Notes: generated by a model from the sequence alone, not told the origin. A stretch of 64,000 bases of DNA from an uncultured virus (IMG/VR IMGVR_UViG_3300023292_000006) (IMGVR_UViG_3300023292_000006); one strand, 5' to 3'. Counted from the first letter of the stretch, positions 8,418 through 64,000 are shown. Numbers and translations: made by a program.

Positions 8418-8418
8418 T

Positions 8419-33832: not shown

Positions 33833-34240
33833 TTAGCTGTGTACGATTTTGATATTTCCATTTGGTTCCTTCATTTTGTATGCTTGTTTGAAAAATGCAG
33901 AGACCCCATTTGGCTTAGGCATGGGTTGAACAGTCACTAATTCGTTTGCAATCATTTTTGGGAATACTCGTCTAGATAAAGGCATAGCCATACTTGAGTA
34001 ATCTGGATCAGGATGACATTTCTTACAATGGGGTGTTATGGTATGCTTAGATAACTCAGATATAGGTAACCATTGGTGACAGTCATGACACTTGAATGTG
34101 TCGGGATCAACTTCACCAATGATATTATCTACTGGACTATTGGTATCAGGGATATTATGTTTCTCTGTCATAGAGTTGAGCAAATTGTTAGAAAGGATAG
34201 AGAATGCCAATGCATCCTGTAAATCATCCGATTTTTGCAT
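33833..34240 (-). CDS. DPD-leader Zn-finger family member fused to a gp23 Gol-peptide-like segment
   Basis: IIGEVDPD-TFK-CHDC..CKKC then RRVFPKMIANELVTVQPMPKPNG. Confidence 0.7.
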   Translation of the reverse strand: MQKSDDLQDALAFSILSNNLLNSMTEKHNIPDTNSPVDNIIGEVDPDTFKCHDCHQWLPISELSKHTITPHCKKCHPDPDYSSMAMPLSRRVFPKMIANELVTVQPMPKPNGVSAFFKQAYKMKEPNGNIKIVHS

Positions 34241-34758
34241 GTAATACCTTTGGTACTTCTCTTGACATATGACTATAGTTGTATGTTAAACATATCTGGT
34301 TATTGATACATTCTTTAGCTGGGCTTCTCTTATATACATGAAACTCATCCATGTTCATCTGAACTGTATATACTTGTATCGGTTTTAATTTGTTCACTGT
34401 TATCATTGTCCCGTTTCTGATCCCGCCCCTCAATATTGCTTGGATCTGTAGGTGTTGGGGTATCGGGTTCGGTATGTTTGATAACGGCTGGGGTTCTTGG
34501 TCTATCATACGGTGCCGGTCCTATCTCTACTTCGTTAGTTATATCTATACAACGACGTCTACTTTGTTGAGCTCTTGCTCTGAAAAGATCATCTAAACTT
34601 ATTCTCATTCGTTAATCCCTTTATCATCTAGTTTATGACCAGTGACATAAAACATAACTTGTATGGGTAAAAATTTTTACATTCAGAACATTGATCATAA
34701 CCACTGGTTAATGATTTAATTATATGATCTACTTTATTATATCTATCAACTAAAGATG

Positions 34759-35004
34759 TCATATTACTATTTTCTTTTCTTTTTTCTGTTTTAGTTTATT
34801 AGCTTTTATTTTTCTTAGTTTCTTCTTTTTTTCTTTCGATAGTTTATGCCCGACATGGAACCCCAAACAATATATGCATGGATACACTTCCATGTTCTTA
34901 GTTCCAGTGCCACCCTGTTTCAATTGAGCTAAATGCTCTTTGGCTGATCGTTTTGTTGCATGACGTATCTTTTTCTTGCAACTATACCATATACGACAAT
35001 TCAT
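34759..35004 (-). CDS. Small phage Zn-binding protein
   Basis: CKKK.R..T...A..YPCIYCLGFHVGH. Confidence 0.55.
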   Translation of the reverse strand: MNCRIWYSCKKKIRHATKRSAKEHLAQLKQGGTGTKNMEVYPCIYCLGFHVGHKLSKEKKKKLRKIKANKLKQKKEKKIVI

Positions 35005-35353
35005 TACATACCCTCTTTCTCCTTTTTCTTTGCACTAGCAAACATACGTTCTTTTCTCTTTTTATTTTTCTTGACCGTATTACCTGTAAGGTTTTTGGTT
35101 TGTTTCCCTTTAAACCCGAATGATATTGCGAAACCTGTTCTACTCATAATACAAATTTTCCTATTAATATTCCTACGATAAAAAATAAAACTGAAAATAT
35201 AACCAAAGCGATTTTAATTTTATCTGGTTGTTCTTTTCGATTGTCTAAAGCTAAATATGACAATGGTGCATTAATGTGTTTTTTCATACCATTCTTTCCT
35301 TGTGTACATGTTTTTCTTGTTATAACTATTTTTGTATGTCATAATGTATGATA

Positions 35354-35602
35354 CTATATGTCCTGGTCGTTCCCGTAACCGTCAAGCCCACAATTAGTTG
35401 AACATACATGGATATCACACATTTTACTATTTTTAGAGATTCTGTTTGTCGTTAAGTCGTCTCGATGTTTCCATCTGTTACATGCAAAGCATTGAAAATA
35501 ATCAGGATCAATTACACGGATTATATCATTTACCTTTATTCGTTTGAGATTCTCCTCCACACCAATACGACAAATTTCCTCTATATCAACTGGGTGTTTC
35601 AT
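35354..35602 (-). CDS. DPD-leader Zn-finger family
   Basis: DIIRVIDPDYFQCFAC..CSTNC. Confidence 0.7.
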   Translation of the reverse strand: MKHPVDIEEICRIGVEENLKRIKVNDIIRVIDPDYFQCFACNRWKHRDDLTTNRISKNSKMCDIHVCSTNCGLDGYGNDQDI

Positions 35603-36125
35603 CTTCTAACGAAGCCATCTTCCACCATTCTGGTTCATTTATAATTAGTTCTTCTTTTAGTTCATTCATCTTATTGGATGATTCCTCATCTGTAACTTCA
35701 ATTTTACCGATACATGAATGAGCAACTAACCGCAATACATCATATATGGTCAGTAGAGTGTGTCCATCTTTTATGTATTGATTAAATACATGCTTAATAG
35801 TCTTAGTTCGACCATCTAATGTTGAGCAAACTTCTATAGACTTATCAAATAACTTCTGATCTTCTTCTGTTATCTCGATCATATCCTTTTCTGGTATCTC
35901 TGTAGCCATTTCAATTTCCTTTCTCGAAACCACAATCACATATTTTGATTTCGGTGTGTCCTAAAGTTTCTAGTTTCTCCATTATACAACCGCCACATAA
36001 ATTTTGTTCTACACCTATGGACGCAATCTGTTTCCATAAACGGTCAGGTAATAATAGATCTACAGAATATTTATTCTTGCATTCACTACATATTGGCATC
36101 TTGACTCCTTATACATATTTCTGGG

Positions 36126-36497
36126 TTACACACATTCTATTATTTTGTTAACTTCTTTTTCTAGTTCATCTTGACGTTTTCTACAAATTGGACATTTGTC
36201 CATTAACACCTTTGATGATTCCATTCTATCAATCACAGATTTTCGCTGCTTATCATTTAATTTGGAAAAGTCAATATCAGGCAAATGAGATTTATGATTC
36301 ATCCCTCTTCTTAACATTTCATTTGATAATTCTTCATGTCTACAGCTGAGAGACTCAGGTTCGAGTAAATTGTTATCAATATAGCCTTGTATGGATGTAC
36401 CCTTATTAATGGTACCAACAAACATATGATGCTCGCAATGCTCGCCTAAAAGGTGTTGTCGACATAAGAATCTTGGGTTAACCATCCATTGTCTCAT
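36126..36497 (-). CDS. Pyrimidine-dimer DNA glycosylase (DenV/endonuclease V-like)
   Basis: MRQWMVNP..LCRQHLLGEH.E.H, RHEELSNEMLRRGMNH.S. Confidence 0.75.
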   Translation of the reverse strand: MRQWMVNPRFLCRQHLLGEHCEHHMFVGTINKGTSIQGYIDNNLLEPESLSCRHEELSNEMLRRGMNHKSHLPDIDFSKLNDKQRKSVIDRMESSKVLMDKCPICRKRQDELEKEVNKIIECV

Positions 36498-37038
36498 ATT
36501 ACACTTCCTCGATTGTCCATTCAGATTCAATTATGGGTATACTTGACCATCTACCAATTTTATATTTATTCGGGGGAGCGTCTTCCGGGTGCCGTATTGC
36601 CCCACCCATTTGTTTAAGATTGGGTTCACGAATATATGCTTTACCGTTTTTACTAAGGTTGCATTTAGAACCATGAATTGATGGTTTGTAATATAACCCA
36701 GATGGGATATGTCTCATCCGATATGCTTTTGGTAGTACAGCTGGCTTAACTATATTTGCATTGACTACTGTACCAATCATTCCACCATTCATACATTCTT
36801 CAAACTCAATAAATTTTGCTTCACCATTATGTCTAGTTTTATTGTATGCTTCTTCGCCTGTGAATATACCTATATTCCCACCTATACGATTTGTATAGCC
36901 TGAACACCCCACCCTCCAATATGCTTGATGGCACATTTCATCACTATAAATATATACTGCGGGCATAGCCTTTAACTTAGTAAGTTTCTTTGGGTCTTTT
37001 TTTGCTTGGTTTAGTGTAATTATTATTGGGGTTCTCAT

Positions 37039-38691: not shown

Positions 38692-39177
38692 CTAGCTTTT
38701 TATCGATTAGTTTTTCAATCTTTGATCTATATGAGAGTCTCTAATTTAACTGACGTTTAATATTATATGCAGAAAATATAATCAATCCAATAATTAATAG
38801 TGAAACAATATATCCTATCAATTTCATTTAAGTTCCTTTTTTCTTGTAAGCATGAACATCTCGTCCAACTTCTGAACAAAATGTTTTAATCCAACGTTTC
38901 TTTTTAGTGAGTGTTCTTGTTAAGAGTTTACTGCACTTAGGACATTTATATATTTGAGGAGGTATCATTTATTTTTTCCATTTTACTTTTTTCTTTCTTT
39001 AAAGTAAACTCTCTTGAATAGAGCCATGCAGTCTTTCTATCTCCATTATTCCAATACGCAACTCTATATTGCTTACCATTGATGTCATATATCATAGAAT
39101 CAATGATTCCGGGTCTTTCTATCTCGGTTATAAAGACATTATCTTGTAAGTTAAACTCAAACTCGATGTTTACCATA

Positions 39178-39889: not shown

Positions 39890-40054
39890 TTCATTCTCCG
39901 TTAGTATACTTGTATAAAATCCTTACAAGTATCAGTTCCATTTACTTTCTTGTTATGTGTATGACAATAACCATCTTTCTCAGTATTGTCAATCTTCTTA
40001 TCTACATTCTCGGTACAATGATCACAATTCTTACATATTTCAATTTTATCCATT

Positions 40055-40327
40055 TTACCAATCCATTGTATCTTCATCTATACACCCAACACCAAAAGCA
40101 CATATCTGCATGATATCCAATAGTTCATGACGAATTTCTTCAATTGGTCTATGGTCTTGAATTGCCTTTAGTAGTTCTCTTTGTTCACATACCATTATTC
40201 CCAGAAGTTCATGTCGTGATGCAAAAGTCTGTCGTCCATGTTTTTCTATGACTTTCTGTGTATGATCTCGTCCGGATACAAATGCATCATCAATTACGCT
40301 ATCACTTATTTGTGGTCGATTCATCAT
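40055..40327 (-). CDS. MazG-like small protein
   Basis: FASRHELLGIM..E..EL..AI..ELLDI.Q. Confidence 0.5.
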   Translation of the reverse strand: MMNRPQISDSVIDDAFVSGRDHTQKVIEKHGRQTFASRHELLGIMVCEQRELLKAIQDHRPIEEIRHELLDIMQICAFGVGCIDEDTMDW

Positions 40328-41100
40328 TATTGTCCTTTAACGTTATCAAGTATTAAATCTTCAACTGTCAATTTGCGGATAAAGTAAGCCTTATGGATAT
40401 AACCATGTTCTGTCTTTACCTTATTCCATGGACTCCATCCCCATATTGAAATCTCACCTTGTGAGGTTTTGAATGATTCATTCTTCTTATATCTATCATA
40501 TAGTACCCTTTTCTCTGGTCCCATGATAACTTGTCTATATTGATCATAAGAATCAGTCCATAATGTTAATTCAGTATCCATTATATAACCTCCATATCGT
40601 AATCTGCCGCTTTACGCAATACCTTAGATATTTCATAGAGACCTTCTGGGCCATGTTTAGATAGAAGACTATCAATACTCTTTGGGTCACTTGGATTAAA
40701 AGTTATTAACTTATTGGGTAAATGGCTAGTTTCAACTGTTAACTGAGAAATGTTTTTCATATAACGTTCGAAGTCACTATCGTGATCAAGTATTTTCACA
40801 TCTGGCTTACAATGGTAATTTGGTATATCGTCTGTCATGGTGTCTCCCCGATTCTATCACGGATAGTATATCCAGTTATCCGAGAGCTATCCAAACTATG
40901 GGACCATATCCATTCAACTTCCTGATTGGGATATAACCATACACCAGTAATTGCACTAGTATCGCTAGTATACATTCCATACGGGGGAGGCGCTTCCACC
41001 CATCTTTTTCCACCAGTATCATACTCTATACCAAATGTCATAATAAACTCCTTTACACAATTTTATTCATTATATACTAATTAAGATCTTTAACGTTATT

Positions 41101-42417: not shown

Positions 42418-42615
42418 TTATTGGTCAACGATATAATGATAATCATTAGTAAGACCAACATTAGTACATGTGAATGAATTAAAAGATATATGTAGGTATA
42501 ATCTATGACATATGTTGCATGTTTTAGTTCTTTTAGATATCCATCCATTACACCTAATACTTAAACATCTAATCATATCAGGGTCGAGTTCATTAATGAT
42601 ATCTTCAGCTAACAC
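42418..42615 (-). CDS. DPD-leader Zn-finger family (GW subfamily)
   Basis: DIINELDPDMIRC..CNGW..CNIC. Confidence 0.8.
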   Translation of the reverse strand: MLAEDIINELDPDMIRCLSIRCNGWISKRTKTCNICHRLYLHISFNSFTCTNVGLTNDYHYIVDQ

Positions 42616-42805
42616 ACTTAACCTCCGTTAAACTGATGACATTAGTAACAATTGGTATATAACGTCCATATATAAACCTAGACTGTTCCCTACCGCAGGT
42701 AGCGCAAATATTAGTAGTTAGAGGCACCCATCCTACGCAACGCGTAAAGTTGCATTTTTTCAGAGTAGGATCCACGGTGTTAATAATTTCTTCAGCATTC
42801 ATCAA
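42605..42805 (-). CDS. DPD-leader Zn-finger family (GW subfamily)
   Basis: EIINTVDPTLKKC..CVGW..CATC. Confidence 0.8.
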   Translation of the reverse strand: MMNAEEIINTVDPTLKKCNFTRCVGWVPLTTNICATCGREQSRFIYGRYIPIVTNVISLTEVKCVS

Positions 42806-42989
42806 ACTTCAACTTTCTTAGTATCAACACAGCTTTAAGTGGGTCTGTGTTAACTGATAAATATCTACCGCATTCACTACAAAAAGTATAATTATTATAT
42901 TTACCCCTTATGATACTACCTATACATCCAGGTACTGGACAATCAGCTATATCAGGATCTATTTTATTAACAATCTCTTCAGCAGTCAT
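42792..42989 (-). CDS. DPD-leader Zn-finger family (GW subfamily)
   Basis: EIVNKIDPDIADC..CIG..CSEC. Confidence 0.8.
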   Translation of the reverse strand: MTAEEIVNKIDPDIADCPVPGCIGSIIRGKYNNYTFCSECGRYLSVNTDPLKAVLILRKLKFDEC

Positions 42990-43170
42990 TATATTCCTTA
43001 AAATGTGGAGTTGTTGCAGCTAATCTAACAATGTTATCTCGACCAACCCATTTAACAAAAACTGTGTGACATTTATTACATTCCATAGTATTTATCGATA
43101 CCCAACCATTACATTTTCTACAATGAAAGATAGTAGGATCTATTTCATTTATAAGATCTTTATTGGTCAT
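42979..43170 (-). CDS. DPD-leader Zn-finger family (GW subfamily)
   Basis: DLINEIDPTIFHCRKCNGW..CNKC. Confidence 0.8.
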   Translation of the reverse strand: MTNKDLINEIDPTIFHCRKCNGWVSINTMECNKCHTVFVKWVGRDNIVRLAATTPHFKEYNDC

Positions 43171-43400
43171 TATAGTATCCTTGCATTATTGGGATCAAGG
43201 TTTCCGATATAGAATTGCTTTTGCCCAACTTTATTAATCCATATAGAATATTGACGAAAACATTTATCACAGTGTAACGTATGGGTTGCTTCATCAATAA
43301 AAGTCTTATCTACATATCCAGAACAACCAGCATGGATACACTTAAAGAAATCCGGGTCCAATTCCTTTATGAGTTTTTTAACAATCATAACCACCACCAA
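43170..43400 (-). CDS. DPD-leader Zn-finger family (GW subfamily)
   Basis: KLIKELDPDFFKC..CSGY..CDKC. Confidence 0.8.
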   Translation of the reverse strand: MVVVMIVKKLIKELDPDFFKCIHAGCSGYVDKTFIDEATHTLHCDKCFRQYSIWINKVGQKQFYIGNLDPNNARIL

Positions 43401-43602
43401 ATCCTTTTATACCTTTCTTAGCCCAAGATAGATGCCTTACCCCGAATTGGTCTGTCCATTCATTAAATATTCGTTTACACCTATCACATACCATAGTTTC
43501 CCTATCTACCCAACCAGGATAACACTTACACTTAAAGATGGTAGGGTCGAGTTTCTTTTGTTCTTTCTTTAGACCTACGTATGTCATAAATTGCTTTAGC
43601 AT
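43378..43602 (-). CDS. DPD-leader Zn-finger family (GW subfamily)
   Basis: KKLDPTIFKCKCYPGW..CDRC. Confidence 0.75.
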   Translation of the reverse strand: MLKQFMTYVGLKKEQKKLDPTIFKCKCYPGWVDRETMVCDRCKRIFNEWTDQFGVRHLSWAKKGIKGFGGGYDC

Positions 43603-45655: not shown

Positions 45656-45949
45656 TGTTTTTCCTTGTTGTTGTGAATTAAATCATGCTGGCCCTATGTA
45701 AAACCGTATCGTTCTTATGAAAAGTCATCCTTTACGTAAGATTTAGTCTTTATTTTGTAATCCGCCATTCTTTATTGTGTCACGTATGACATATATTGTA
45801 TACCATATCAGTAAAAGAAACACAATAATTGATAATACTGCCTCCACAGAACCAATATCTTCGTTAAAAAATTGTTTTGTCACGGCGCTAATGTTGGTTG
45901 TAGACAAAAACATTCGATTAAGTAATGTTGCGATCATCATACCCCTATA

Positions 45950-46830: not shown

Positions 46831-46835
46831 TCTTT

Positions 46836-47051
46836 TCATTGTTTCCTCTTATTGCAATAATCTTCTAGTATCTTTTGTTTGGTTTGGTTCTCTAAGTCTA
46901 CATCTCTTCTATAACATTCCCAGCATTCATAAACCTTATGATAGTCCTTTACATCTATTTCCCTAGTATCTTTCTTATCCCAATATTTGTGACATCTATA
47001 GCATTTGACCCTATCTGGATCTAGTTGGTCTATGATATCTTGGTTATTCAT
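46836..47051 (-). CDS. DPD-leader Zn-finger family
   Basis: QDIIDQLDPDRVKCYRC..CWEC. Confidence 0.8.
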   Translation of the reverse strand: MNNQDIIDQLDPDRVKCYRCHKYWDKKDTREIDVKDYHKVYECWECYRRDVDLENQTKQKILEDYCNKRKQ

Positions 47052-49626: not shown

Positions 49627-49812
49627 TTAAGGAGAATCTTCATTAATCAATACATTACTACACTCAAACCCATTAAGACATATATAAAATAATCTCTCAT
49701 CTACATTATCTTTGAGGTATGAACTCAACTTATATAATGGGTAATATTGGTTACATGCCATACATTTTGCTTTATCAGGATCTAATTCGTTTATAAGATC
49801 TTGTGTATCCAT
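49627..49812 (-). CDS. DPD-leader Zn-finger family
   Basis: QDLINELDPDKAKCMAC..C.....C. Confidence 0.8.
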   Translation of the reverse strand: MDTQDLINELDPDKAKCMACNQYYPLYKLSSYLKDNVDERLFYICLNGFECSNVLINEDSP

Positions 49813-50118: not shown

Positions 50119-50274
50119 TTAATCGGTTATTATATCTACAAATGCATCTATACATAATTTGCATAAACATACATCAGTAAAGATATCTATCTTATCTTTT
50201 GTGAATTGTTTATGACAATCACTACATTCATATATGTCTGGATCTAGTATGTCTATTATGTCTTGTTTATCCAT
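50119..50274 (-). CDS. DPD-leader Zn-finger family (51 aa, not in the ORF track)
   Basis: Hand translation MDKQDIIDILDPDIYECSDC..CKLC. Confidence 0.8.
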   Translation of the reverse strand: MDKQDIIDILDPDIYECSDCHKQFTKDKIDIFTDVCLCKLCIDAFVDIITD

Positions 50275-50440
50275 TAGGTAACCCATTTACCCAGTTCTCA
50301 TGACAATTGATACAAGTAGGCTTACTCTTATCGGGAGCTACATATATCAATAGTGCATCATTTATATGAATGTATTCCTTGCATATATAACATATTACCA
50401 TATCTGGATCTAGCTCATCTATGAGAGTTTGTTTATTCAA
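50267..50440 (-). CDS. DPD-leader Zn-finger family (57 aa, TTG start, not in the ORF track)
   Basis: Hand translation MNKQTLIDELDPDMVICYIC..CINC. Confidence 0.75.
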   Translation of the reverse strand: MNKQTLIDELDPDMVICYICKEYIHINDALLIYVAPDKSKPTCINCHENWVNGLPNG

Positions 50441-52412: not shown

Positions 52413-52589
52413 TTATTTATCCCTTTTGGATAGGTGATTCGTATGATATAACACCCAATTTTCATTACATCTGGTGCATTCATTATCAAGTCTTCCCTCG
52501 AGTGGATCCAATCGGGAGAAGTACTTCTTACAGAATATACATTGAATCATATCTGGATCCAACTCGCCTATGATGTCTTGCTTATTCAT
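52413..52589 (-). CDS. DPD-leader Zn-finger family (58 aa, not in the ORF track)
   Basis: Hand translation MNKQDIIGELDPDMIQCIFC..CTRC. Confidence 0.8.
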   Translation of the reverse strand: MNKQDIIGELDPDMIQCIFCKKYFSRLDPLEGRLDNECTRCNENWVLYHTNHLSKRDK

Positions 52590-53208: not shown

Positions 53209-53436
53209 TTAATAATCCTTCGGTGTCGTTACTATACTCTCAGTATGCCCAACTTTTACTTGGCATGATGCACATATATTAATGTGTCCATTTGAGTCAG
53301 CATACCCTGATAAACCAAATATCTTCTCTGCATCTATTGTATACATACCAGACTTGGGTCGATATAGTTTACATCTAGTACATTGAAACTTATCTGGGTC
53401 TAACATATCTATGAATCGTTGCTTATCCATCTCCAC
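53209..53436 (-). CDS. DPD-leader Zn-finger family
   Basis: RFIDMLDPDKFQCTRC..CASC. Confidence 0.8.
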   Translation of the reverse strand: MEMDKQRFIDMLDPDKFQCTRCKLYRPKSGMYTIDAEKIFGLSGYADSNGHINICASCQVKVGHTESIVTTPKDY

Positions 53437-53662
53437 CTCTATACGACATATCCAACCTCATCTTTGCCTTTTGGTCATCCTTACATACAACACACGTATG
53501 TCTATCATATACATAAAATTCATGTTTAATAGATTTGAATAGTTTACATCTTTTACATCTAGTCTTGGTTGGGTCCAACTCATCTATTAGATCTTGTTGA
53601 TCCACATTTAAACCTCCTTTTAGTTTAAGAAACTCCCTTTTGAGTTTCTTAGTTGTTATCAA
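53423..53662 (-). CDS. DPD-leader Zn-finger family
   Basis: QDLIDELDPTKTRCKRC..CVVC. Confidence 0.8.
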   Translation of the reverse strand: MITTKKLKREFLKLKGGLNVDQQDLIDELDPTKTRCKRCKLFKSIKHEFYVYDRHTCVVCKDDQKAKMRLDMSYRGGDG

Positions 53663-53766: not shown

Positions 53767-53958
53767 TCAACCTGTCCATAATCCTGCATTCTTTAACCTT
53801 CGATGTTCTTCTAAACATTCAGGGGCCAATTTTGGTATACATATTGTGGACACCACAGATCTTTGATAAATAGTATCCTTAGAGTCCATATATCTTAAAC
53901 ATATATCACACTTGATCTTGTCAGGATCCAGTTCACCAATTATCTGGTTTGTGTCCAC
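53767..53958 (-). CDS. DPD-leader Zn-finger family
   Basis: QIIGELDPDKIKCDIC..C. Confidence 0.8.
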   Translation of the reverse strand: MDTNQIIGELDPDKIKCDICLRYMDSKDTIYQRSVVSTICIPKLAPECLEEHRRLKNAGLWTG

Positions 53959-54142
53959 TTTGTACCTTCTCTCGTTCTATGCCCAGGCATTCGGAACATA
54001 CTGGTAGTTTACCAAATAGACTCAACTTTAACTCATCTATTGGGTAATACTTGAAACAGTATCTGCATTCTACCATGTCAGGATCTAACTCATTTATTAT
54101 CTTTTGTTTGTCCATTGTTACACCGTATATGTGTTGAGGCAT
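53933..54142 (-). CDS. DPD-leader Zn-finger family
   Basis: KIINELDPDMVECRYC..CSEC. Confidence 0.8.
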   Translation of the reverse strand: MPQHIYGVTMDKQKIINELDPDMVECRYCFKYYPIDELKLSLFGKLPVCSECLGIEREKVQSGHKPDNW

Positions 54143-54288
54143 TTATCACATTGTGTACAGACTATCATCTCACCAAGATATGTAGATGTTAGCTCATTTT
54201 TTGGAAAATACTTATGACAGTCTGTACACTTATCTTTATCTGGGTCTATCTCATCTATTCACCTTTTCTCATTTATTGGTTCACCCAT
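54118..54288 (-). pseudogene. DPD-leader Zn-finger family member with an in-frame TGA
   Basis: MGEPINEKR*IDEIDPDKDKCTDC..CTQC; TGA at 54259-54261. Confidence 0.6.
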
Positions 54289-54595: not shown

Positions 54596-54814
54596 TTACT
54601 GGCATGATTTAACTCCTTCGGATTTTCGTATTGAATTTTTACTATTTATCATTGCTTCTCGCATTATCGACTCATAAAAATACTCACCACATTGTCCGCA
54701 TAGTTTCATCCCTTCACTCATACAATTAGATTCATCACTAGTAAATGAACCACCACAATCCTCACATTTATGTATTGTCGGATCCAACTTTTTGATGATG
54801 TCTTCTGCTGTCAT
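54596..54814 (-). CDS. DPD-leader Zn-finger family
   Basis: EDIIKKLDPTIHKCEDC..CGQC. Confidence 0.8.
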   Translation of the reverse strand: MTAEDIIKKLDPTIHKCEDCGGSFTSDESNCMSEGMKLCGQCGEYFYESIMREAMINSKNSIRKSEGVKSCQ

Positions 54815-57290: not shown

Positions 57291-57798
57291 TAGAGAAGAA
57301 TAAGACTCCTCTAGTGACCTTTATTCCAATTATCCGTGGAACATCCCACAGTCAGGACACATCCCCTCAATTTGTTCTCGTAGGGTCATATGTCGTATTT
57401 CAGACAGTATGTCTTCGATATTAATAGACGGTGGATCAACATGTCCAATAGTAGCTACAATTCTAGATGAACATACTGGACATTCAAATAATATTCCAAC
57501 TTCAGTCCCGCGTTCCACAAGCTCTCCATCGTCCTCAGTTAGTTCTATTGTGGATTTACAATGTGAGCACCTAACTTTGTATTTCTTCAACTCTTGTGGC
57601 GGTTCTTTTCGGTCTAGTACTTTGATAGCCATTTGGCATATCCTCTCTTTGTGTTACGGAATCAGTTATTGATTCTAAATAGGTTTACTCATAACGATAA
57701 CATTACTCATCCCATAAGTCATATCCTTCTAGTGTTATTTTTCGTATAAATTCTTTCTTGTAGTTTTGTGGTTGGTGGTTTATCTTTATATACCATAA

Positions 57799-58488: not shown

Positions 58489-58504
58489 TTATTCCTCGTT
58501 CGGT

Positions 58505-58696
58505 TTATAACATTTCCTGATCTTTGGATAACATATCATCTATACATTTTGGGCATACATGAACCATGCCGCCTCCACCATTTTTTAATGATACATGAAC
58601 AAGTTTGGCTTCTTCTATATCAAAATACTTCTTACATAGAAAACATGGGTGTTGATCCGGATCTAGCTCTGCTATAATAATATCTAGTTTATTCAT
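58505..58696 (-). CDS. DPD-leader Zn-finger family
   Basis: IIIAELDPDQHPCFLC..CPKC. Confidence 0.8.
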   Translation of the reverse strand: MNKLDIIIAELDPDQHPCFLCKKYFDIEEAKLVHVSLKNGGGGMVHVCPKCIDDMLSKDQEML

Positions 58697-59740
58697 CCAT
58701 AACTTCTAAGTGATACCCACTGGTTGCACGTATTTGATAACCATCATCAAATTCAACACTAACATAAGAAAAATCCTTATGATCATCACCTCTGACATTA
58801 ATACATGAGACTGTAGCTATCTTATTCTCATGAGACATGAGTTCATCAAATTCTTCTTGTGACAACCCCCAATCATCAGCATTACATATATCTATATTGG
58901 TAAATTTTACCCTCTGCCCCTTTATTAAGTTATGGCTGTGTTGGTTCTTTAAGATGGTATTTGCGTATCGTGTTATGATATCTATACCATATTCGCTAGA
59001 TTTACAATCTGGATAGTGACCCCATATTTCCATTCCGAAATGAGGATGTGGCCCATCTATCTCTGCATGACCAAGAATTCTTATCCTATCTGATGATAAC
59101 ATAGCATCCCACAAATCTGCCTTGACTTTGAGTTTTGCATTCACTTGCTCAAGTAGCACATACCTTTTCAGTAACTCAGTATGGGATGCGATATCCTTTA
59201 ATTCTTCATCTAAGCTCATCGTGTTTCCTTCGGTTTAGTTTTGGGAAAGAATTGTTTGGCAAATGGATTGCATAGTAATTTACAAACCATCCTTCTCTTA
59301 TGGTAATCCCACAGGTACAAAGATCTTTTCTCATTATCTGGATCAAACCCATAATGTAGTTTGAATCTCATTTCATTAATCTCTCTGCAAATTTGGTCTG
59401 TATATCTCTGGCCATTTGACCCATAAGTTCAAGAGATTCAATATTGAATCCGGTTATATGAATATACCCAGTTTCAGCAAATGGATCTCTTAAATGGAAT
59501 TTGACAGCTGCAATATATCTTTTACCGTCTTCTGGTTGATCCCAATTGATCCCGCAGTCAGGAAAGAATATTCCATGAGTAGAATTTACTGATGTTCTAT
59601 TTGTAGTTATATGAATTCCTGACTTGGTTTTATATGGAAGTAACTGTTGGAAGAACTTTTCAAAATGATAGTTGTATGCATCATATTGTCTTCTAGTCAT
59701 ATTGGTAAAATCCCATCCAGTAACTTCATCCTTTTTTATA

Positions 59741-59998
59741 TCACATACACTCATTTCTTTTGATCCTTCTATTTACTATGGGATTTTTATCTTTCTTATT
59801 CCAACTCTGTTTAAATTTTATACATTGACTACAAATTGGCCTACCATGAGCACCAGGTAATTCATAATCCTCATAGATATCTTCTCCATCTATATGGTAA
59901 TATTTCTTACATTCATGACATTGTATTTGATCTGGATCTAATACGTTAATTATTTCTTGTACAGCTGTCATATATACATGTCTCCACTTTGGAATCAA
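59741..59998 (-). CDS. DPD-leader Zn-finger family
   Basis: EIINVLDPDQIQCHEC..CSQC. Confidence 0.8.
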   Translation of the reverse strand: MIPKWRHVYMTAVQEIINVLDPDQIQCHECKKYYHIDGEDIYEDYELPGAHGRPICSQCIKFKQSWNKKDKNPIVNRRIKRNECM

Positions 59999-60143
59999 CT
60001 GAAAAATTGATAATAGTCACATCCCTCATGCCATAGTATTTCTTACATATACTACATAATCTTTTACCATCATTTCTGACTTCATCAATTATTGTATTGA
60101 TTTGATCCTGTTTGAAGTCATGGATCACCACGATCCACCCCAC
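59946..60143 (-). CDS. Divergent DPD-leader Zn-finger family member
   Basis: TIIDEVRNDGKRLCSICKKYY..C....C; the DP dipeptide is lost. Confidence 0.5.
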   Translation of the reverse strand: MGWIVVIHDFKQDQINTIIDEVRNDGKRLCSICKKYYGMRDVTIINFSVDSKVETCIYDSCTRNN

Positions 60144-60328
60144 AAACGTGGCCGCATTGCTCCAACATCTTTTCTAAAGTATTCATTACATTTACCTTTC
60201 TTACAAATAGAAAATTTAGTTTCTTTAACCGTGTAATGATACATCTTATCTTTATGTTTATGTCTACAACATTCCCAACACTGTGTTTGGTCTGGGTCTA
60301 GTTTAGATATTAGTTTTTCTGCATTCAT
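60125..60328 (-). CDS. DPD-leader Zn-finger family
   Basis: KLISKLDPDQTQCWEC..C....C. Confidence 0.8.
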   Translation of the reverse strand: MNAEKLISKLDPDQTQCWECCRHKHKDKMYHYTVKETKFSICKKGKCNEYFRKDVGAMRPRLWGGSW

Positions 60329-60375
60329 AATAAGGGTGGAGCCAGAGCTCTTTGTGAGTTAGCTCCCTTCTAATC

Positions 60376-60864
60376 TTATATGATTGGGTTACATGGTGGG
60401 TGACCAGCAGGGCTTGGATTTTTCTTCATGCTTGCTTTCGTCTGGCCAACTGTCAACCGTGGCACCTTTCGCCCTGATAGTCTACGAACATCGAAGTCAT
60501 AGGGTTCTATTAGTTCACCAGTCTTTTTAAGAGTTCCCTTTGGTTGGAGGAGTGCATGTATACAACCGTTGATGTGTAGAGTAATTGCTATCACGGTTCC
60601 TTTGAATCCACTTGCTTTATCTGTAGCAACAGTTCCCATCATCTCTAATGGTAGCTTAGTATCAGCTCTCTTCCCATGGATTACTCGCTCAGCAGTAATC
60701 CATATTGATTTAGTGGGATGTCCAGTTTCAGGGTTGAGACCCTTTGGCTGGAACAAGTAATGCTTAGTATCCTCCGTTATTTGGAAATGGGTCAGCATTC
60801 CTTCTGATCCACTTGCTTTATCTTGTACCTTTGTATTAAGTTCTATTAGGTTTAGTGTTTTCAT
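60376..60864 (-). CDS. Phage protein made of a tandem-duplicated DKASGxxG..QP domain
   Basis: 17-bp DNA repeat at 60606-60622 and 60807-60823 (201 bp = 67 codons apart). Confidence 0.6.
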   Translation of the reverse strand: MKTLNLIELNTKVQDKASGSEGMLTHFQITEDTKHYLFQPKGLNPETGHPTKSIWITAERVIHGKRADTKLPLEMMGTVATDKASGFKGTVIAITLHINGCIHALLQPKGTLKKTGELIEPYDFDVRRLSGRKVPRLTVGQTKASMKKNPSPAGHPPCNPII

Positions 60865-61102
60865 ATTTTTCCTTTGTATTGTTAATACTACTTCTAATTC
60901 TGATAGCTAATTCTGACACGCATTCGGGACAACTATCTTCTAGGAATCCTCCACCAGTGTAAACTTCCATTGGTTTAAATGTTTTGCATTGTCCACATTT
61001 TCTTTGACCAGGATCCAATTCTCCAATTATCTCATTTACTCCATATTTTTCTTTCATTAGTTGACCTTGATAACTGGATGTTCTTTTAAGTTTTTCTTGC
61101 AT
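60836..61102 (-). CDS. DPD-leader Zn-finger family
   Basis: EIIGELDPGQRKCGQC..CPEC. Confidence 0.8.
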   Translation of the reverse strand: MQEKLKRTSSYQGQLMKEKYGVNEIIGELDPGQRKCGQCKTFKPMEVYTGGGFLEDSCPECVSELAIRIRSSINNTKEKYENTKPNRT

Positions 61103-61383
61103 TTTTCATCATCCATACATTTATTCCAGTTAGGATGAGCATCTTTCTTATCTATGTATTTAAAACAAGTATAGCATTGGACCCTAGCAGGATCAAGACG
61201 ATTAATGATATCTTCTACACCCATCCATTCATCTGGTTCTAACTCTATGAATGATCCATCTGTTGGGGGATTATCTGCATTAAGAACACCCCAATCTGTC
61301 CGATCTTGTTGTTCTGCTTTCTTTATTGTCTCTTCTATATCTGGATGCGGTTTTTCCTTCTTGCGTCTTTTGAATATATTCAT
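61057..61383 (-). CDS. DPD-leader Zn-finger family (internal motif)
   Basis: DIINRLDPARVQCYTC..C.....C. Confidence 0.75.
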   Translation of the reverse strand: MNIFKRRKKEKPHPDIEETIKKAEQQDRTDWGVLNADNPPTDGSFIELEPDEWMGVEDIINRLDPARVQCYTCFKYIDKKDAHPNWNKCMDDEKCKKNLKEHPVIKVN

Positions 61384-61386
61384 ATC

Positions 61387-61872
61387 TCATTCTTTACTTT
61401 TTTGATAATCATCCACAAACCCACGGAGACGATTACCTGTAGGCAGCACACCTGAAAGAGATTTAATTTCCCACTGATGATGAGTTTTAAGCCATAGCAA
61501 GAAATCAAGAATGTCCATAGTATTATCCGGCATTTCTTCAATATGGGTTCTGAATCTGGTGTTGCTATTCATATGTCGCTCAGTACCAAACACCAATTCA
61601 TCAAGATCCTTGTTAGTGACTCTCTCATCATTTGAACCAATTGTCATCTTATAATTTTTTTGTACGTTAGCTAACACTGTCAACTCCTTGTTGTAACAAT
61701 CTAGACAATCACTATAAAAATGTTTAGCATCTTTAAATAATTCTATATCTTTATATTCGCCACATTCTGCACATAGAACCTTAGTAGGATCGAGTACACC
61801 AATTATCCTATGCACAGAGTTGTTTATCATGTTCATCTGCCTTATCTTGTAGTATTTCTGCACACCCCTCAC
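61387..61872 (-). CDS. DPD-leader Zn-finger family with C-terminal extra domain
   Basis: RIIGVLDPTKVLCAEC..CLDC. Confidence 0.75.
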   Translation of the reverse strand: MRGVQKYYKIRQMNMINNSVHRIIGVLDPTKVLCAECGEYKDIELFKDAKHFYSDCLDCYNKELTVLANVQKNYKMTIGSNDERVTNKDLDELVFGTERHMNSNTRFRTHIEEMPDNTMDILDFLLWLKTHHQWEIKSLSGVLPTGNRLRGFVDDYQKSKE

Positions 61873-62206
61873 AGAACCAACTACATTCTATATGGGACAT
61901 GTAAATAAGAATACTTGGTGGTCCAGTCATGAGCCATATGTTTTTTCTCTCTTCCCATTCTTCATCAAATGGTTTATATTTCTCGCATATATCACAAAAT
62001 CGTTGATCAGGATCTAACTCACCAATTATGAAATCAGCATGTTCGTCCTTCTTCAGGTCAATAGAGCATAAACCACAAATTAAAACATCTCTACCATCAT
62101 CTAGCATTACAGTGTTTGCAGATCTTAATTGACTGAATTCATGGCATTCATAACATTTAAATAAATTTGGATCTAAGTAGTCTATAATGTCTTGTGCTGT
62201 TATCAT
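61808..62206 (-). CDS. DPD-leader Zn-finger family, two fused units
   Basis: DIIDYLDPNLFKCYEC..CGLC and FIIGELDPDQRFCDIC..CEGC. Confidence 0.8.
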   Translation of the reverse strand: MITAQDIIDYLDPNLFKCYECHEFSQLRSANTVMLDDGRDVLICGLCSIDLKKDEHADFIIGELDPDQRFCDICEKYKPFDEEWEERKNIWLMTGPPSILIYMSHIECSWFCEGCAEILQDKADEHDKQLCA

Positions 62207-62447
62207 TTGTATTCATCTCCTTTCCTGTATAACCAATTCCTGGACTCTCTACGGCATTGTGGATGTCCAGCATAATCTTATCTTCTATCCGTCCCTTAAC
62301 CAGGCAGGGATAGCATGTGAACGTTAAATCAGCCGTTATCTCATCTTCTGGAATGAGTGTGCGGCATGGCTTCTTACATCTCCAACATATTACAATATGA
62401 GGGTCAATTTTATTAATGATATCAATGGTGTCCATATTCTCCCTCAC
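62157..62447 (-). CDS. DPD-leader Zn-finger family
   Basis: DIINKIDPHIVICWRC..CYPC. Confidence 0.8.
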   Translation of the reverse strand: MRENMDTIDIINKIDPHIVICWRCKKPCRTLIPEDEITADLTFTCYPCLVKGRIEDKIMLDIHNAVESPGIGYTGKEMNTNDNSTRHYRLLRSKFI

Positions 62448-62962
62448 TTGTTCATATGTTTTCGTTTCTTCTCATAGTAACCTTGTAGTCCCGCGCTTCC
62501 TTGCTCAATCTTAAAAATACAATACTTACAGAGATATTCTATATCTCTCTGATTACAATACTTACTGATCATTATTGAACATCTTATTTGTTCTTTGAAG
62601 AAATCAATATCTGATTGAATCCTGTCGAACCCGCAGTCACAATGATTACATATGATCCTATCCGGATCAATACGATCTATTAAGTCTTGTGCATCAGACT
62701 CGGTTTGTGAATCTCTACCACGGGCATCTCTCGCCTTTTTCTGTTGTGTAGTATATTCACCAATCTGACATTCCTCACATATCATTGTTTCTAGAGGGGA
62801 TATCTTCGATGACTCATGCACCATCAAATTAACATGTTTGTATTGTTGACACAATAAACAAAACCTTTGATCCGGATCGAGTTGTCCAATGATAAAATCA
62901 ATCCTCGAGATCTTCTTGGGTTGATATGTCATCTCCAATCCTTTCAATAATTTCATCCGCAT
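62444..62962 (-). CDS. DPD-leader Zn-finger family, two fused units
   Basis: FIIGQLDPDQRFCLLC..CEEC and DLIDRIDPDRIICNHC..CKYC. Confidence 0.8.
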   Translation of the reverse strand: MRMKLLKGLEMTYQPKKISRIDFIIGQLDPDQRFCLLCQQYKHVNLMVHESSKISPLETMICEECQIGEYTTQQKKARDARGRDSQTESDAQDLIDRIDPDRIICNHCDCGFDRIQSDIDFFKEQIRCSIMISKYCNQRDIEYLCKYCIFKIEQGSAGLQGYYEKKRKHMNK

Positions 62963-63202
62963 GCAAAGATGTGATAAACTCTTTTCGTTCCTCTGATGGA
63001 ACCATTTGAACTACTTGTCTAGTAAAATCTAGTAGTGAATCGAAATCGTGTCCCTCATCACAACCCTCATATAGATTCCCAATGAAACCAACTATGTCCT
63101 CCAATGTATTACTATGATTCGTCATAATCATTTCAGCCAATACACTAGCTTCAATATTCATACTGACATCATTCTCTAGATCCAAAAATAACTTAGACAT
63201 AT

Positions 63203-63394
63203 CTACCCCTTATATTCATGATCATCTGCACAATGGTTACACATTCTAACTATTATTATGTCTGGTTTCATTTGAATTATTATGTTATCACAATTCGTTA
63301 TATGACACCAATCCTTACATACTCCACATTTCTCCATATCTGGATCAATTGCTGATACAATATTATTGACGATCTTTGTATTCTTCACATTCAT
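63203..63394 (-). CDS. DPD-leader Zn-finger family
   Basis: NIVSAIDPDMEKCGVC..CNHC. Confidence 0.8.
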   Translation of the reverse strand: MNVKNTKIVNNIVSAIDPDMEKCGVCKDWCHITNCDNIIIQMKPDIIIVRMCNHCADDHEYKG

Positions 63395-63575
63395 TTATAT
63401 TCCTACATAATACCGTCCCCCAAGGATCCGTGTCCAAGAATTTCTTATCTATACTCCGTCCACATTCTTCACATATAAGAGTATCAGGATCTATCTTATC
63501 GATTATTTCACTAGCGGTAATATTTTTGCAAAATTTTGTATCTGTGACATTTTTGATAATTGTATTTGATGACAT
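63363..63575 (-). CDS. DPD-leader Zn-finger family
   Basis: EIIDKIDPDTLICEEC..CRNINEC. Confidence 0.8.
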   Translation of the reverse strand: MSSNTIIKNVTDTKFCKNITASEIIDKIDPDTLICEECGRSIDKKFLDTDPWGTVLCRNINECEEYKDRQ

Positions 63576-63775
63576 TCTCTCCTATTAATACATTTATAAA
63601 GTGTTGTATACCTTACCATAATTAGTTTATCTTTATGGATTTTTCGTTTACATTCGTTACATTCAAATAGATCAGGATCGATCTCTTCAATAATATCTAT
63701 AGCTGATTTTGAATTTGGTGAAAACTTCTCACTTATGCTTAACTGGGTTTTTAAGGTCACATGTGTACAATTCAT
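63503..63775 (-). CDS. DPD-leader Zn-finger family
   Basis: DIIEEIDPDLFECNEC..CINRREC. Confidence 0.8.
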   Translation of the reverse strand: MNCTHVTLKTQLSISEKFSPNSKSAIDIIEEIDPDLFECNECKRKIHKDKLIMVRYTTLYKCINRRECHQIQLSKMSQIQNFAKILPLVK

Positions 63776-63998
63776 AATCTACTCCCATGTTCATACCTAT
63801 AAAATTGATAAAGTCGACGAGGATAGCTTCAATATGTCTTTGTTGAACCCGTTCCCCTTCTTCGATATCATTCATATGTCTATTCCTTTCCAATGATGGT
63901 TGAGCATCATTTTGATAATGAATAGCATATTCCCTACACATACTCAACAAATCTGATCTGGTAGAGATAGTGGTTGGATCAAGTCTATCAATAATTTG
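63729..63998 (-). CDS. Protein with DPD leader but no Zn finger (5'-truncated by window edge)
   Basis: The frame extends to the edge as QIIDRLDPTTISTRSDLLSMCREY.. Confidence 0.6.
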   Translation of the reverse strand, partial: QIIDRLDPTTISTRSDLLSMCREYAIHYQNDAQPSLERNRHMNDIEEGERVQQRHIEAILVDFINFIGMNMGVDYELYTCDLKNPVKHK

Positions 63999-64000
63999 TG

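What the first reader, a model, noticed from the sequence alone, without database searches (positions are those of the whole stretch)
33833..64000. About 33-gene family of microproteins: constant IIxxLDPD leader + hypervariable C4 zinc finger
Seen: I count about 33 minus-strand ORFs (about 35 motif copies) with the layout [D/E/K][I/L]Ixx[L/I/V]DP[D/T]-x3-C-x1-4-C-(variable)-C-x2-7-C. Three are intact sub-60-aa ORFs absent from the ORF track (50119, 50267, 52413). The DP-to-first-Cys spacing is nearly invariant, while the sequence between and after the Cys pairs is mostly unalignable. Codons under the motif vary synonymously (GAT/GAC, CCA/CCT/CCG), which points to selection on protein rather than a DNA repeat. 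Members occur as tandem arrays, singletons, double-unit fusions and a pseudogene. Inference: this is a constant-docking, variable-warhead repertoire. The leader might bind one common partner (a capsid-packaging signal like the T4 internal-protein CTS, or a host protease/RNAP adaptor site), while the fingers diversify against host targets or defence proteins. I do not recognise this as a described family.
Basis: partly seen in the sequence, partly recalled or inferred. Interest (0 to 1): 0.92.

Follow-up and report, generated by a model that had tools for sequence, protein, structure and literature searches.

The report
Expanded phage family of small zinc-finger proteins
An uncultivated large phage carries about 33 divergent copies of a previously undescribed small zinc-binding protein whose conserved start is most likely the first helix of the fold rather than a detachable address tag, and what the proteins do is unknown.

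Summary
A profile built from the family finds 32 units in the window, all on the minus strand between 33836 and 63778. One of them is a pseudogene. A regex adds one further unit, and two ORFs are degenerate. The layout is M-x3-[DE]-[IL]-I-x2-[LI]-D-P-[DT]-x3-C-x2-C ... C-x2-5-C. D11, P12 and the four Cys are invariant. Third codon positions vary freely, so selection acts on the protein. No Pfam, PHROG, NCBIfam or PADLOC family matches. Five large-phage records tested with the profile lack the family. More than 100 metagenomic relatives exist, often in tandem arrays.

The "docking leader plus hypervariable warhead" reading is only partly supported:
- The Pro-to-Cys spacing is fixed in 126 of 127 units.
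- The leader is always attached to the finger and recurs internally in double-unit proteins.
- AlphaFold models it as a confident helix ahead of a treble-clef-like zinc site.
- Paralogs are anciently diverged (about 30-48% identity), while orthologs in related phages keep their fingers.

My best reading is one small domain with a constant scaffold and variable binding surfaces, encoded in a T4-like accessory region. A T4 capsid-targeting role stays possible, because the leader resembles the T4 sequence MKTYQEFIAE. Function is untested.

The parts
33833..34240 (-). 135-aa member: N-terminal extension, then leader and C4 finger (33836-34138), then a C-terminal motif like the N-arm of a T4-type major capsid protein
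   Evidence: HMM E 2.4e-13. Pfam Gp23 positions 6-41 of 376, 28 bits against a cut-off of 24.4. Conserved subfamily in alignment A3.
34628..34762 (-). degenerate member (44 aa), leader-like 'VDHIIKSL' without DP, followed by CxxC
   Evidence: weak HMM hit E 0.0036; sequence
35354..35602 (-). member, 82 aa, leader at residues 27-34
   Evidence: HMM E 8.2e-14
42418..42615 (-). member 1 of a six-gene tandem array (short-loop subtype, CxxC-x-G-W)
   Evidence: HMM E 6.8e-9
42605..42805 (-). array member 2 (likely start ATG 42802)
   Evidence: HMM E 4.9e-6
42792..42989 (-). array member 3
   Evidence: HMM E 3e-5; sub-threshold IBR hit E 5.6e-4
42979..43170 (-). array member 4
   Evidence: HMM E 3.4e-12
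43170..43400 (-). array member 5 (likely start ATG 43388)
   Evidence: HMM E 5.3e-11
43378..43602 (-). array member 6, leader eroded (KKLDPT), Cx1C first knuckle
   Evidence: regex match; HMM only E 0.052
46836..47051 (-). singleton member, 71 aa
   Evidence: HMM E 1.2e-17
49627..49812 (-). singleton member, 61 aa
   Evidence: HMM E 9.9e-15
50119..50286 (-). member, 55 aa (51 aa from ATG 50274)
   Evidence: HMM E 7e-13
50267..50440 (-). member, 57 aa, TTG start
   Evidence: HMM E 6.1e-15. A metagenomic protein (P0025) joins the N-terminal region and leader of 53423-53662 to this finger.
52413..52589 (-). member, 58 aa; the protein modelled
   Evidence: HMM E 9.1e-16; AF2 pLDDT 77.6
53209..53436 (-). 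member (likely start ATG 53430)
   Evidence: HMM E 8.3e-16
53423..53662 (-). member (leader begins at GTG 53605)
   Evidence: HMM E 1.6e-14
53767..53958 (-). member, 63 aa, GTG start
   Evidence: HMM E 1.6e-15
53933..54142 (-). member (likely start ATG 54115, 60 aa)
   Evidence: HMM E 6.5e-18, the best in the window
54118..54287 (-). pseudogene: in-frame TGA at leader position 6; leader remainder and all four Cys still readable
   Evidence: translation, DNA, HMM E 4.5e-11 on the part after the stop
54596..54814 (-). singleton member, 72 aa
   Evidence: HMM E 4e-15
58505..58696 (-). singleton member, 63 aa
   Evidence: HMM E 2.2e-16; orthologs at 100% (L030) and 87% (L018) identity
59741..59998 (-). 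member (likely start ATG 59971); lies in a strain-variable block
   Evidence: HMM E 7.5e-18. All 45 differences between L030 and the window fall in 59700-60081.
59946..60143 (-). degenerate member: 'IIDEVRNDGKRLCSIC', DP lost
   Evidence: sequence; HMM E 0.28, leader region aligned
60125..60328 (-). member, 67 aa
   Evidence: HMM E 5.5e-17
60836..61102 (-). member, 88 aa, leader at residues 25-32
   Evidence: HMM E 6.4e-13
61057..61383 (-). member, 108 aa, leader at residues 59-66 after a long N-terminal extension
   Evidence: HMM E 9.4e-10
61387..61872 (-). member, 161 aa, unit near the N-terminus plus a roughly 90-aa C-terminal extension
   Evidence: HMM E 3.1e-13
61808..62206 (-). double-unit protein, 132 aa (units at residues 1-53 and 54-131)
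   Evidence: two HMM domains, E 1.2e-11 and 3e-8; AF2 pLDDT 89.6, pTM 0.54
62157..62447 (-). member (likely start ATG 62435, 92 aa)
   Evidence: HMM E 6e-8
62444..62962 (-). double-unit protein, 172 aa
   Evidence: two HMM domains, E 5.6e-14 and 1.1e-5
63203..63394 (-). member, 63 aa
   Evidence: HMM E 4e-11
63363..63575 (-). member, 70 aa
   Evidence: HMM E 3.9e-9
63503..63775 (-). member, 90 aa; the array may continue past the window end
   Evidence: HMM E 1.6e-11

Best explanation
These ORFs encode a previously undescribed, phage-restricted family of single-domain zinc proteins of about 50-90 aa.

**Shown or modelled.** The "leader" is not a detachable tag. It is the first, amphipathic and acidic helix of the domain, with I6, I7 and L10 on one face. 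An invariant Asp-Pro turn follows, then a zinc knuckle (CxxC) in a beta-hairpin. A second Cys pair sits at the start of a C-terminal helix. This layout is a treble-clef-like C4 site. The helix, the turn, the two knuckles and an aromatic residue after the first knuckle form the constant scaffold. The inter-knuckle loop (10-37 aa) and the C-terminal helix or tail (7-48 aa) are the variable parts.

**Inferred.** The variable parts are the binding surfaces. Each paralog binds a different host or phage macromolecule, as small early "host-takeover" or counter-defence proteins of T4-like phages do. The family grew by old tandem duplications, and its paralogs are kept as distinct orthologs across related phages. 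Zinc binding, expression and targets are not shown.
For: **The family is real and under protein-level selection.**
- 32 HMM hits, all on one strand.
- D11, P12 and four Cys are invariant.
- Third codon positions are free and the upstream DNA is not conserved.

**The leader is coupled to the finger.**
- The Pro-to-Cys spacing is 4 residues in 126 of 127 units from small homologs.
- 31 of 34 leader-regex matches on the minus strand have Cys at that spacing.
- The leader recurs internally in two double-unit proteins and after N-terminal extensions of up to 58 residues.

**Structure models.**
- Single unit: helix 3-10, strands 14-16 and 23-25, helix 39-56; pLDDT 77.6.
- Double unit: pLDDT 89.6, with 86 for residues 1-10 and 93 for residues 11-20. 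The same element order appears in unit 1. Unit 2 models extra helices.
- The nearest folds are weak: ClpX zinc-binding domain Z 3.2, ZAD domains Z 3.0-3.1, CsfB Z 3.0.

**The diversification is old.**
- Best paralog identity is mostly 30-48%.
- 24 of 30 ORFs have a closer protein from another source than any paralog.
- 12 of those matches are at 64% identity or more.

**Relatives.**
- 113 of 116 small proteins among the top 150 profile hits carry the leader; 14 of the 116 are the window's own.
- 23 of 41 metagenome loci hold members. One locus has 12 genes in tandem.

**Context.** The members lie among DenV-like, QueC-like, exonuclease, GmrSD_N-like and HTH genes, on one strand of short, closely packed genes.
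Against: - No function is shown. There are no RNA or protein data.
- I could not read the model coordinates, so packing of the helix on the finger is inferred from pLDDT and sequence coupling, not from contacts.
- All structural matches are weak: Foldseek E > 2 against PDB, best E 1.2e-3 against viral models, and VIA Z <= 3.2.
- A conserved acidic helix could still be a shared interaction surface.
- The leader resembles the T4 capsid-targeting sequence.
- In the one ortholog pair with DNA, dN/dS is higher outside the leader (0.66 versus 0.26). This also fits a variable "warhead".
Confidence: 0.5

Rival explanations
1. T4-style internal proteins. In this reading the leader is a capsid-targeting propeptide. 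It docks the proteins onto the prohead scaffold, and the prohead protease removes it after Glu in some members. The fingers are then injected with the DNA as a repertoire against host defences.
For: - T4 IPII and IPIII share only the 10-residue MKTYQEFIAE, which resembles MNKQDIIGE or MDKQKIINE here.
- T4 gp21 cuts after L/I-x-E, and targeting does not need cleavage (PMC9026906, passages read).
- T-even internal proteins are described as diverse defence proteins sharing only the targeting sequence (PMC3012670, passages read).
- I7-x-E9 is present in 14 of 32 window units and 69 of 127 homolog units.
- The leader starts at the start codon in about 20 of 32 units.
- One conserved subfamily carries a capsid-protein N-arm motif.
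- In T4, ipII and ipIII sit next to denV. A DenV-like gene lies at 36126-36530.
Against: - The most conserved residues (D11, P12) and the fixed spacing to Cys lie after the would-be cleavage site.
- The leader is never found on an unrelated body. Only one non-finger ORF, 49816-50106, has a loosely similar start.
- Glu9 is absent in about half of the units.
- The proteins are on average slightly acidic: net charge -1.2, pI 4.1-9.3.
- The window holds no virion or protease genes, so this cannot be tested here.
Confidence: 0.2
2. Nucleic-acid-binding regulators. In this reading each paralog is a small zinc-finger protein that recognises a different DNA or RNA site and tunes phage or host gene expression.
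For: - C4 zinc modules commonly bind nucleic acids (general knowledge).
- Some members have basic tails and pI 8.4-9.3.
- The members are encoded among nucleotide-metabolism and repair genes.
Against: - Mean net charge is -1.2 and many members have pI 4.1-5.7.
- No known DNA-binding zinc family matches above threshold.
- The profile hits to C2H2 arrays in the PDB cover only the Cys part and span two fingers.
Confidence: 0.15
3. The conserved helix is a homo- or hetero-dimerisation element, so that paralogs pair combinatorially. The double-unit proteins would be fused dimers.
For: - Double-unit proteins recur: 2 in the window, and by my reading of the sequences about 10 of the 116 small proteins among the hits.
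- The weak structural neighbours (ClpX zinc-binding domain, ZAD, CsfB) are domains that I recall as dimeric (dimer status is from recall).
Against: In the double-unit model pTM is only 0.54 despite pLDDT 89.6, and pLDDT dips to 64 in the linker. The two units are therefore not placed confidently against each other.
Confidence: 0.1

Closest known systems
T4 internal proteins IPI/IPII/IPIII with the capsid targeting sequence
   Same: - A short conserved N-terminal stretch on otherwise divergent small proteins of a T4-like phage.
- A similar residue pattern: Q-[DE]-hydrophobic-I-x-E.
- Encoded in an accessory region near denV in T4.
   Different: - Here the conserved part runs on through an invariant Asp-Pro and a fixed spacer into a zinc knuckle.
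- The bodies all share one fold class.
- Glu9 is present in only about half of the units.
- There are about 33 copies rather than 3.
- Packaging and cleavage are untested.
Treble-clef C4 zinc domains followed by a helix (ClpX zinc-binding domain 2ds5, Drosophila ZAD domains 1pzw/6fp5, B. subtilis CsfB 5n7y)
   Same: - A CxxC knuckle in a hairpin.
- A second CxxC at the start of a helix.
- Small size.
- These domains are, from recall, protein-binding modules.
   Different: - Similarity is weak only (Z 3.0-3.2).
- No sequence family match.
- None of them has the N-terminal II-x2-L-D-P-D helix.
IBR (in-between-RING) half-RING domain, PF01485
   Same: Sub-threshold matches that include the stretch before the first Cys: E 5.6e-4 at 20.4 bits, E 0.011 and E 0.024 for three members.
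   Different: - All are below the 24.3-bit cut-off.
- IBR binds two zinc ions with more ligands.
- There is no RBR ligase context.
Multigene families in accessory regions of large viruses
   Same: Many divergent paralogs in tandem arrays, and mosaic differences between strains.
   Different: About a third of the genes over 30 kb of a phage genome belong to one micro-protein family (30 of 98 called ORFs). My three literature searches found no description of such a family.

Membership tests
T4-type capsid-targeting-sequence proteins | Short propeptide at the extreme N-terminus (first 10 residues suffice in IPIII; PMC9026906 passages) | tested here: inconclusive
   The leader begins at or next to the start codon in about 20 of 32 units. 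It is internal in two double-unit proteins and follows N-terminal extensions of 15-58 residues in others.
T4-type capsid-targeting-sequence proteins | Ends in the prohead-protease site L/I-x-E | tested here: inconclusive
   I7-x-E9 is present in 14 of 32 window units and 69 of 127 homolog units. The protease of this phage and its specificity are unknown.
T4-type capsid-targeting-sequence proteins | The same leader on unrelated mature proteins | tested here: not met
   T4 IPII and IPIII share only the first 10-11 residues. Here 31 of 34 leader matches are followed by the zinc knuckle at fixed spacing. Only one non-finger ORF has a loosely similar start.
T4-type capsid-targeting-sequence proteins | Present in virions, processed, injected | not testable with these tools
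   The phage is uncultivated and no proteome is available. The window holds no head genes.
Treble-clef C4 zinc finger class | First ligand pair on a beta-hairpin knuckle, second pair at the N-terminus of a helix | tested here: met
   In the AF2 models C17 and C20 lie between strands 14-16 and 23-25, and C38 and C41 lie at the start of helix 39-56. The same element order appears in unit 1 of the double-unit model, with C44 and C47 at the start of helix 45-64. These are models, not measurements.
Treble-clef C4 zinc finger class | Clear structural match to solved members | tested here: inconclusive
   Foldseek PDB best E 2.2. VIA-align best Z 3.2. BFVD best E 1.2e-3 with TM 0.26.
Any curated zinc-finger or phage family (Pfam, PHROGs, NCBIfam, PADLOC) | Score at or above the family cut-off | tested here: not met
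   16 members against Pfam: the only family at or above its cut-off is Gp23, on the tail of 33833-34240. PHROGs: best finger match E 4.8e-4. NCBIfam and PADLOC, 32 units each: one chance-level hit each.
HNH / beta-beta-alpha-Me nucleases | Invariant catalytic His (and Asn/His) in the finger | tested here: not met
   The only invariant residues are D11, P12 and four Cys. HNH-like rows in BFVD have E >= 0.014.
Major capsid protein Gp23 (PF07068), for ORF 33833-34240 only | Full HK97-like capsid domain | tested here: not met
   Only profile positions 6-41 of 376 match. In LR756508 the same motif lies in a 544-aa capsid protein. A search for longer fused forms found none.

The most novel reading that the evidence does not exclude
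The conserved helix is a common docking surface. A T4-like phage lineage would use it to load some thirty different zinc mini-proteins onto one hub, either the prohead scaffold (for co-injection with the DNA) or a single host machine. That would make the family a combinatorial, pre-packaged effector repertoire, a large-scale version of the T4 internal-protein system. The capsid-N-arm fusion would be a capsid-anchored member.
Probability: 0.15. Interest if true: 0.85.

Novelty: new variant of a known kind. Interest (0 to 1): 0.58.

Why it matters
About one third of the genes in a 30-kb accessory region of a large phage belong to one uncharacterised micro-protein family. The family has no entry in four family libraries and no member in the sequenced large phages tested here.

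If the variable loops bind different host or phage targets, the family would be a natural library of very small zinc-stabilised binders. It would also be a new source of host-takeover or counter-defence factors.

If the helix is a capsid-targeting signal, the T4 internal-protein principle would extend to a much larger, structurally uniform repertoire. Either outcome can be tested with a few recombinant proteins.

Tried and rejected
**Alternative explanations rejected**
- DNA repeat or translation-signal explanation: rejected, because third codon positions vary and upstream DNA is not conserved.
- Rapid in-situ diversification or a diversity-generating retroelement target: not supported. There are no recent paralogs. 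Strain differences form mosaic blocks that also hit non-family genes at 56.3-57.7 kb, and the substitution spectrum is not adenine-specific. I did not search specifically for a reverse transcriptase. None appeared among the ORFs scanned.

**Searches that found no family members or no useful context**
- IMG/VR pattern scan: 0 matches.
The 433-aa neighbour found nothing. One member gave only a 13-residue match on a contig of 61% GC.
- tblastn of one member and of a double-unit relative against 50,697 phage records: nothing, or chance hits at E about 0.5.
- Profile search of Aeromonas phage 65, Vibrio phage Va1, Pseudomonas phage UNO-G1W1 and the huge phages LR756508 and LR756501: only weak matches to the Cys part, with no leader.
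- Pattern scan of GTDB genomes: 18 loci, none with a family member. Nine to ten are one conserved, out-of-frame site in Bacteroidota MAGs, mostly Saprospiraceae.
- Word-index homolog search: only 11 proteins.
- Search for longer fused forms of 33833-34240: none.
- ESM Atlas: nothing named.
- PDB profile search: only Cys-part matches to tandem C2H2 fingers.
- The 34 long proteins among the top 150 profile hits carry no leader. The three I inspected are Cys-rich repeat proteins, two of them with CxxCH repeats.
- Literature searches found no description of the family.

**Tests without a usable answer**
- Promoter and terminator scan: not above shuffles, 90 versus 100.9.
- tRNA and Rfam scans: none.
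- Two-copy complex prediction: no verdict, score 0.00.
- Sequencing runs: 24 DNA holders, labelled by the tool as salt lake metagenome, and no RNA holder listed. Expression is therefore untested.
- No whole genome is held.
- An earlier-findings look-up returned nothing.

Full report

Yes. In six-frame translations the leader regex occurs 33 times in minus-strand frames and once in plus-strand frames. DP-x2-6-C-x1-5-C occurs 34 times versus once. A back-translated DNA pattern for IIxxLDPDx3Cx2C matches 9 times, with 0.00 expected in 100 shuffles.

The 34 regex matches on the minus strand resolve into 32 real units, one unit with a stop codon in the leader, and one spurious second match. A local HMM built from 78 family sequences gives 32 domain hits with i-E <= 3e-5. 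All lie on the minus strand between 33836 and 63778, and the pseudogene is among them. Weaker hits fall on the eroded unit 43381-43578 and on two degenerate ORFs, 34628-34762 and 59946-60143.

In a simple gene call, 30 of 98 minus-strand ORFs between 33.3 and 64 kb carry the strict motif.

**2. Anatomy**

The alignment of 32 units has D11, P12, C17, C20, C38 and C41 invariant, and I7 above 90%. In about 20 units the motif starts at the start codon: M-[ND]-x-[QE]-[DE]-[IL]-I-x-x-[LI]-D-P-[DT]-x3-C-x2-C.

Codon analysis shows selection on the protein:
- P12 uses CCT 16, CCA 10, CCG 5 and CCC 1.
- L10 uses at least six codons.
- I6 and I7 use ATA, ATT and ATC.
- The 30 nt upstream carry no information.

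The inter-knuckle loop is 10-37 residues (median 19) and the tail after the last Cys is 7-48 residues. The proteins are on average slightly acidic, with mean net charge -1.2 and pI 4.1-9.3. The leader has mean charge -2.

**3. Relatives**

A profile search of 1.84 billion representative proteins gave 484 hits at E <= 1e-3 and 23 at E <= 1e-10. Of the best 150:
- 116 are shorter than 200 aa. Of these, 113 carry the leader followed by the knuckle, and 14 are the window's own proteins.
- 34 are long. None has a leader, and the three I inspected are Cys-rich repeat proteins.

The family is absent from the curated libraries. No family reaches its cut-off in Pfam except Gp23 on one tail. PHROGs, NCBIfam and PADLOC give nothing meaningful.

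It was not found in 50,697 phage records by tblastn with two queries. It was not found in five large phages tested with the profile. The pattern scan of IMG/VR gave 0 matches. None of the 18 pattern matches in GTDB genomes is a family member.

In metagenome contigs the pattern found 41 distinct loci. 23 of them hold family members by HMM, and 22 of these have 29-41% GC. Most are short contigs with several members side by side. L007 has 12 consecutive family genes in about 2.1 kb.

**4. What kind of phage**

The window has about 33% GC. It encodes:
- glycosyl- and methyltransferases;
- five homing-endonuclease-like genes;
- nucleotide-metabolism genes, including a ThyX with an intein;
- around the family, a DenV-like glycosylase, QueC-like and deoxyribosyltransferase-like proteins, a PD-(D/E)XK exonuclease, a GmrSD_N-like protein and an HTH protein.

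One neighbour gene is shared with Aeromonas phage 65, Vibrio and Pseudomonas large phages, and huge uncultured phages. No head genes are in the window, and no whole genome is held.

**5. Leader: separate module or part of the fold?**

Four results point to one folding unit.
- (a) The spacing from Pro to the first Cys is 4 residues in 126 of 127 units from small homologs and in all 32 window units.
- (b) The leader is not portable. 31 of 34 leader matches on the minus strand are followed by Cys at that spacing. Only one non-finger ORF, 49816-50106, begins with a loosely similar sequence.
- (c) The leader recurs inside proteins. It is the second unit of 61808-62206 and 62444-62962, and it follows N-terminal extensions of up to 58 residues.
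- (d) AlphaFold2 models it as a helix. The single unit has helix 3-10, strands 14-16 and 23-25 around the first knuckle, and the second Cys pair at the start of helix 39-56. Its pLDDT is 77.6 and pTM 0.53. The double-unit protein has pLDDT 89.6, with 86 for residues 1-10 and 93 for residues 11-20. The helix after the first unit's second knuckle runs straight into the second unit's leader.

The layout is treble-clef-like. I could not read coordinates, so direct helix-to-finger contacts are not shown.

Structural neighbours are weak and generic. Foldseek against the PDB gives best E 2.2. VIA-align gives best Z 3.2, with a Rab-effector zinc domain, the ClpX zinc-binding domain, ZAD domains and CsfB. 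BFVD gives best E 1.2e-3 at TM 0.26.

**6. "Hypervariable"?**

Within the window no two members are close. Best paralog identity is mostly 30-48%, and the single 76% value covers only 21 leader residues. 24 of 30 ORFs match a protein from another source better than any paralog. 12 have such matches at 64% identity or more, and some of these probably come from the same phage population. The fingers therefore differ because the paralogs are old, and orthologs keep them.

Only one ortholog pair with DNA and real divergence was available, 59744-59971 versus L030. It gave dN 0.071 and dS 0.272 for the first 24 codons, and dN 0.152 and dS 0.231 for the rest. This suggests looser constraint outside the leader, but it is a single pair.

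All 45 differences between L030 and the window lie in 59700-60081, next to 1177 identical bases. This is a mosaic block. Contigs of four further runs show variant blocks both there and in non-family genes at 56.3-57.7 kb. Strain variation is therefore not specific to the family. A metagenomic protein (P0025) joins the upstream part and leader of 53423-53662 to the finger of 50267-50440. This suggests recombination between paralog leaders that deleted about 3 kb. The two leaders share only short runs of identical DNA.

**7. The capsid-targeting analogy**

T4 IPII and IPIII share MKTYQEFIAE and nothing else. Reviews state three points:
- The first 10 residues of IPIII suffice for packaging.
- gp21 cuts after L/I-x-E.
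- T-even internal proteins are diverse defence proteins that share only this sequence (PMC9026906 and PMC3012670, passages read).

The family leader, for example MNKQDIIGE-LDPD, has the same Q-acidic-hydrophobic-I-x-E pattern at nearly the same distance from Met. In T4, ipII and ipIII sit beside denV.

One conserved subfamily also points to the capsid. It comprises 33833-34240 and seven metagenomic relatives. These proteins end in a motif that in other phages is the N-arm of the major capsid protein.

Against the analogy: Glu9 is present in only 14 of 32 and 69 of 127 units. The invariant residues lie after the would-be cut. The leader is never on another fold. I keep this as the main rival (0.2) and as the novel case.

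**8. Verdict**

The family is real and undescribed in the libraries and literature searched. It is unusually expanded.

The most likely reading (0.5) is a single small zinc domain with a constant helix-turn-knuckle scaffold and variable loop and tail. I infer that it serves as a set of distinct small binders encoded in a T4-like accessory region.

Zinc binding, expression, targets and virion location are all untested. No RNA run is listed, and the two-copy complex job gave no verdict.

Noticed in passing
window 33833-34240: A conserved subfamily (this ORF plus 7 metagenomic proteins at 30-84% identity) fuses the leader-finger to a roughly 35-residue motif. In the 484-kb phage LR756508 the same motif is the N-arm of the real 544-aa major capsid protein. 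It could be a capsid-associated member or a capsid-assembly mimic.
   Followed up: partly
window 30604-32250: The ThyX thymidylate synthase gene is interrupted by an intein (Thy1 E 6e-44 plus Intein_splicing E 6e-10).
   Followed up: no
window 809-1843, 2744-3682, 18030-19085, 20632-21456, 24915-25892: Five paralogous DUF7487 genes. Four have a Vsr/DUF559-like nuclease C-terminus and two have C2H2 or zinc-finger N-termini. They are scattered among glycosyltransferase and nucleotide-metabolism genes and are probably homing endonucleases.
   Followed up: no
window 1-11827: A plus-strand cluster of at least 7 glycosyltransferase-like and 2 methyltransferase genes, followed by two large proteins of 781 and 1120 aa with no family match.
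   Followed up: no
window 50267-50440 and 53423-53662 (protein P0025): A metagenomic protein is a chimera of these two paralogs joined within the leader. This implies a deletion of about 3 kb by recombination between leaders in a related phage.
   Followed up: partly
window 59700-60081 versus L030: All 45 differences to a 97%-identical contig are packed into 382 bases covering two family genes, next to 1177 identical bases. The same variant form is seen in contigs of three further runs.
   Followed up: partly
window 35911-36099, 38828-38968, 39901-40077, 43606-43866, 47179-47376, 54979-55194, 57330-57632: Several further small Cys-rich (CxxC) ORFs without the leader. The region is generally rich in small putative zinc proteins.
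   Followed up: no
window 45940-46836 and 43866-44354: Two stretches without ORFs of 35 aa or more. The first holds several short direct repeats. The second holds a terminator-like hairpin with a 19-pair stem at 44276-44318 (minus strand). No Rfam match.
   Followed up: partly
window 40819-41971 versus L042: A related contig at about 92% identity lacks the 226-aa gene 41101-41781 (DUF1937/deoxyribosyltransferase-like). This is a presence/absence difference between strains.
   Followed up: no
window 49816-50106: A 96-aa non-finger ORF starts MITATEIITEI, loosely like the family leader but without Asp-Pro or the zinc knuckle. It is the only such case in the window.
   Followed up: partly
L007 1373-3498: Twelve consecutive family genes in about 2.1 kb share an array-specific leader variant (EIIKEIDPDY). 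This suggests local amplification or concerted evolution in that relative.
   Followed up: no
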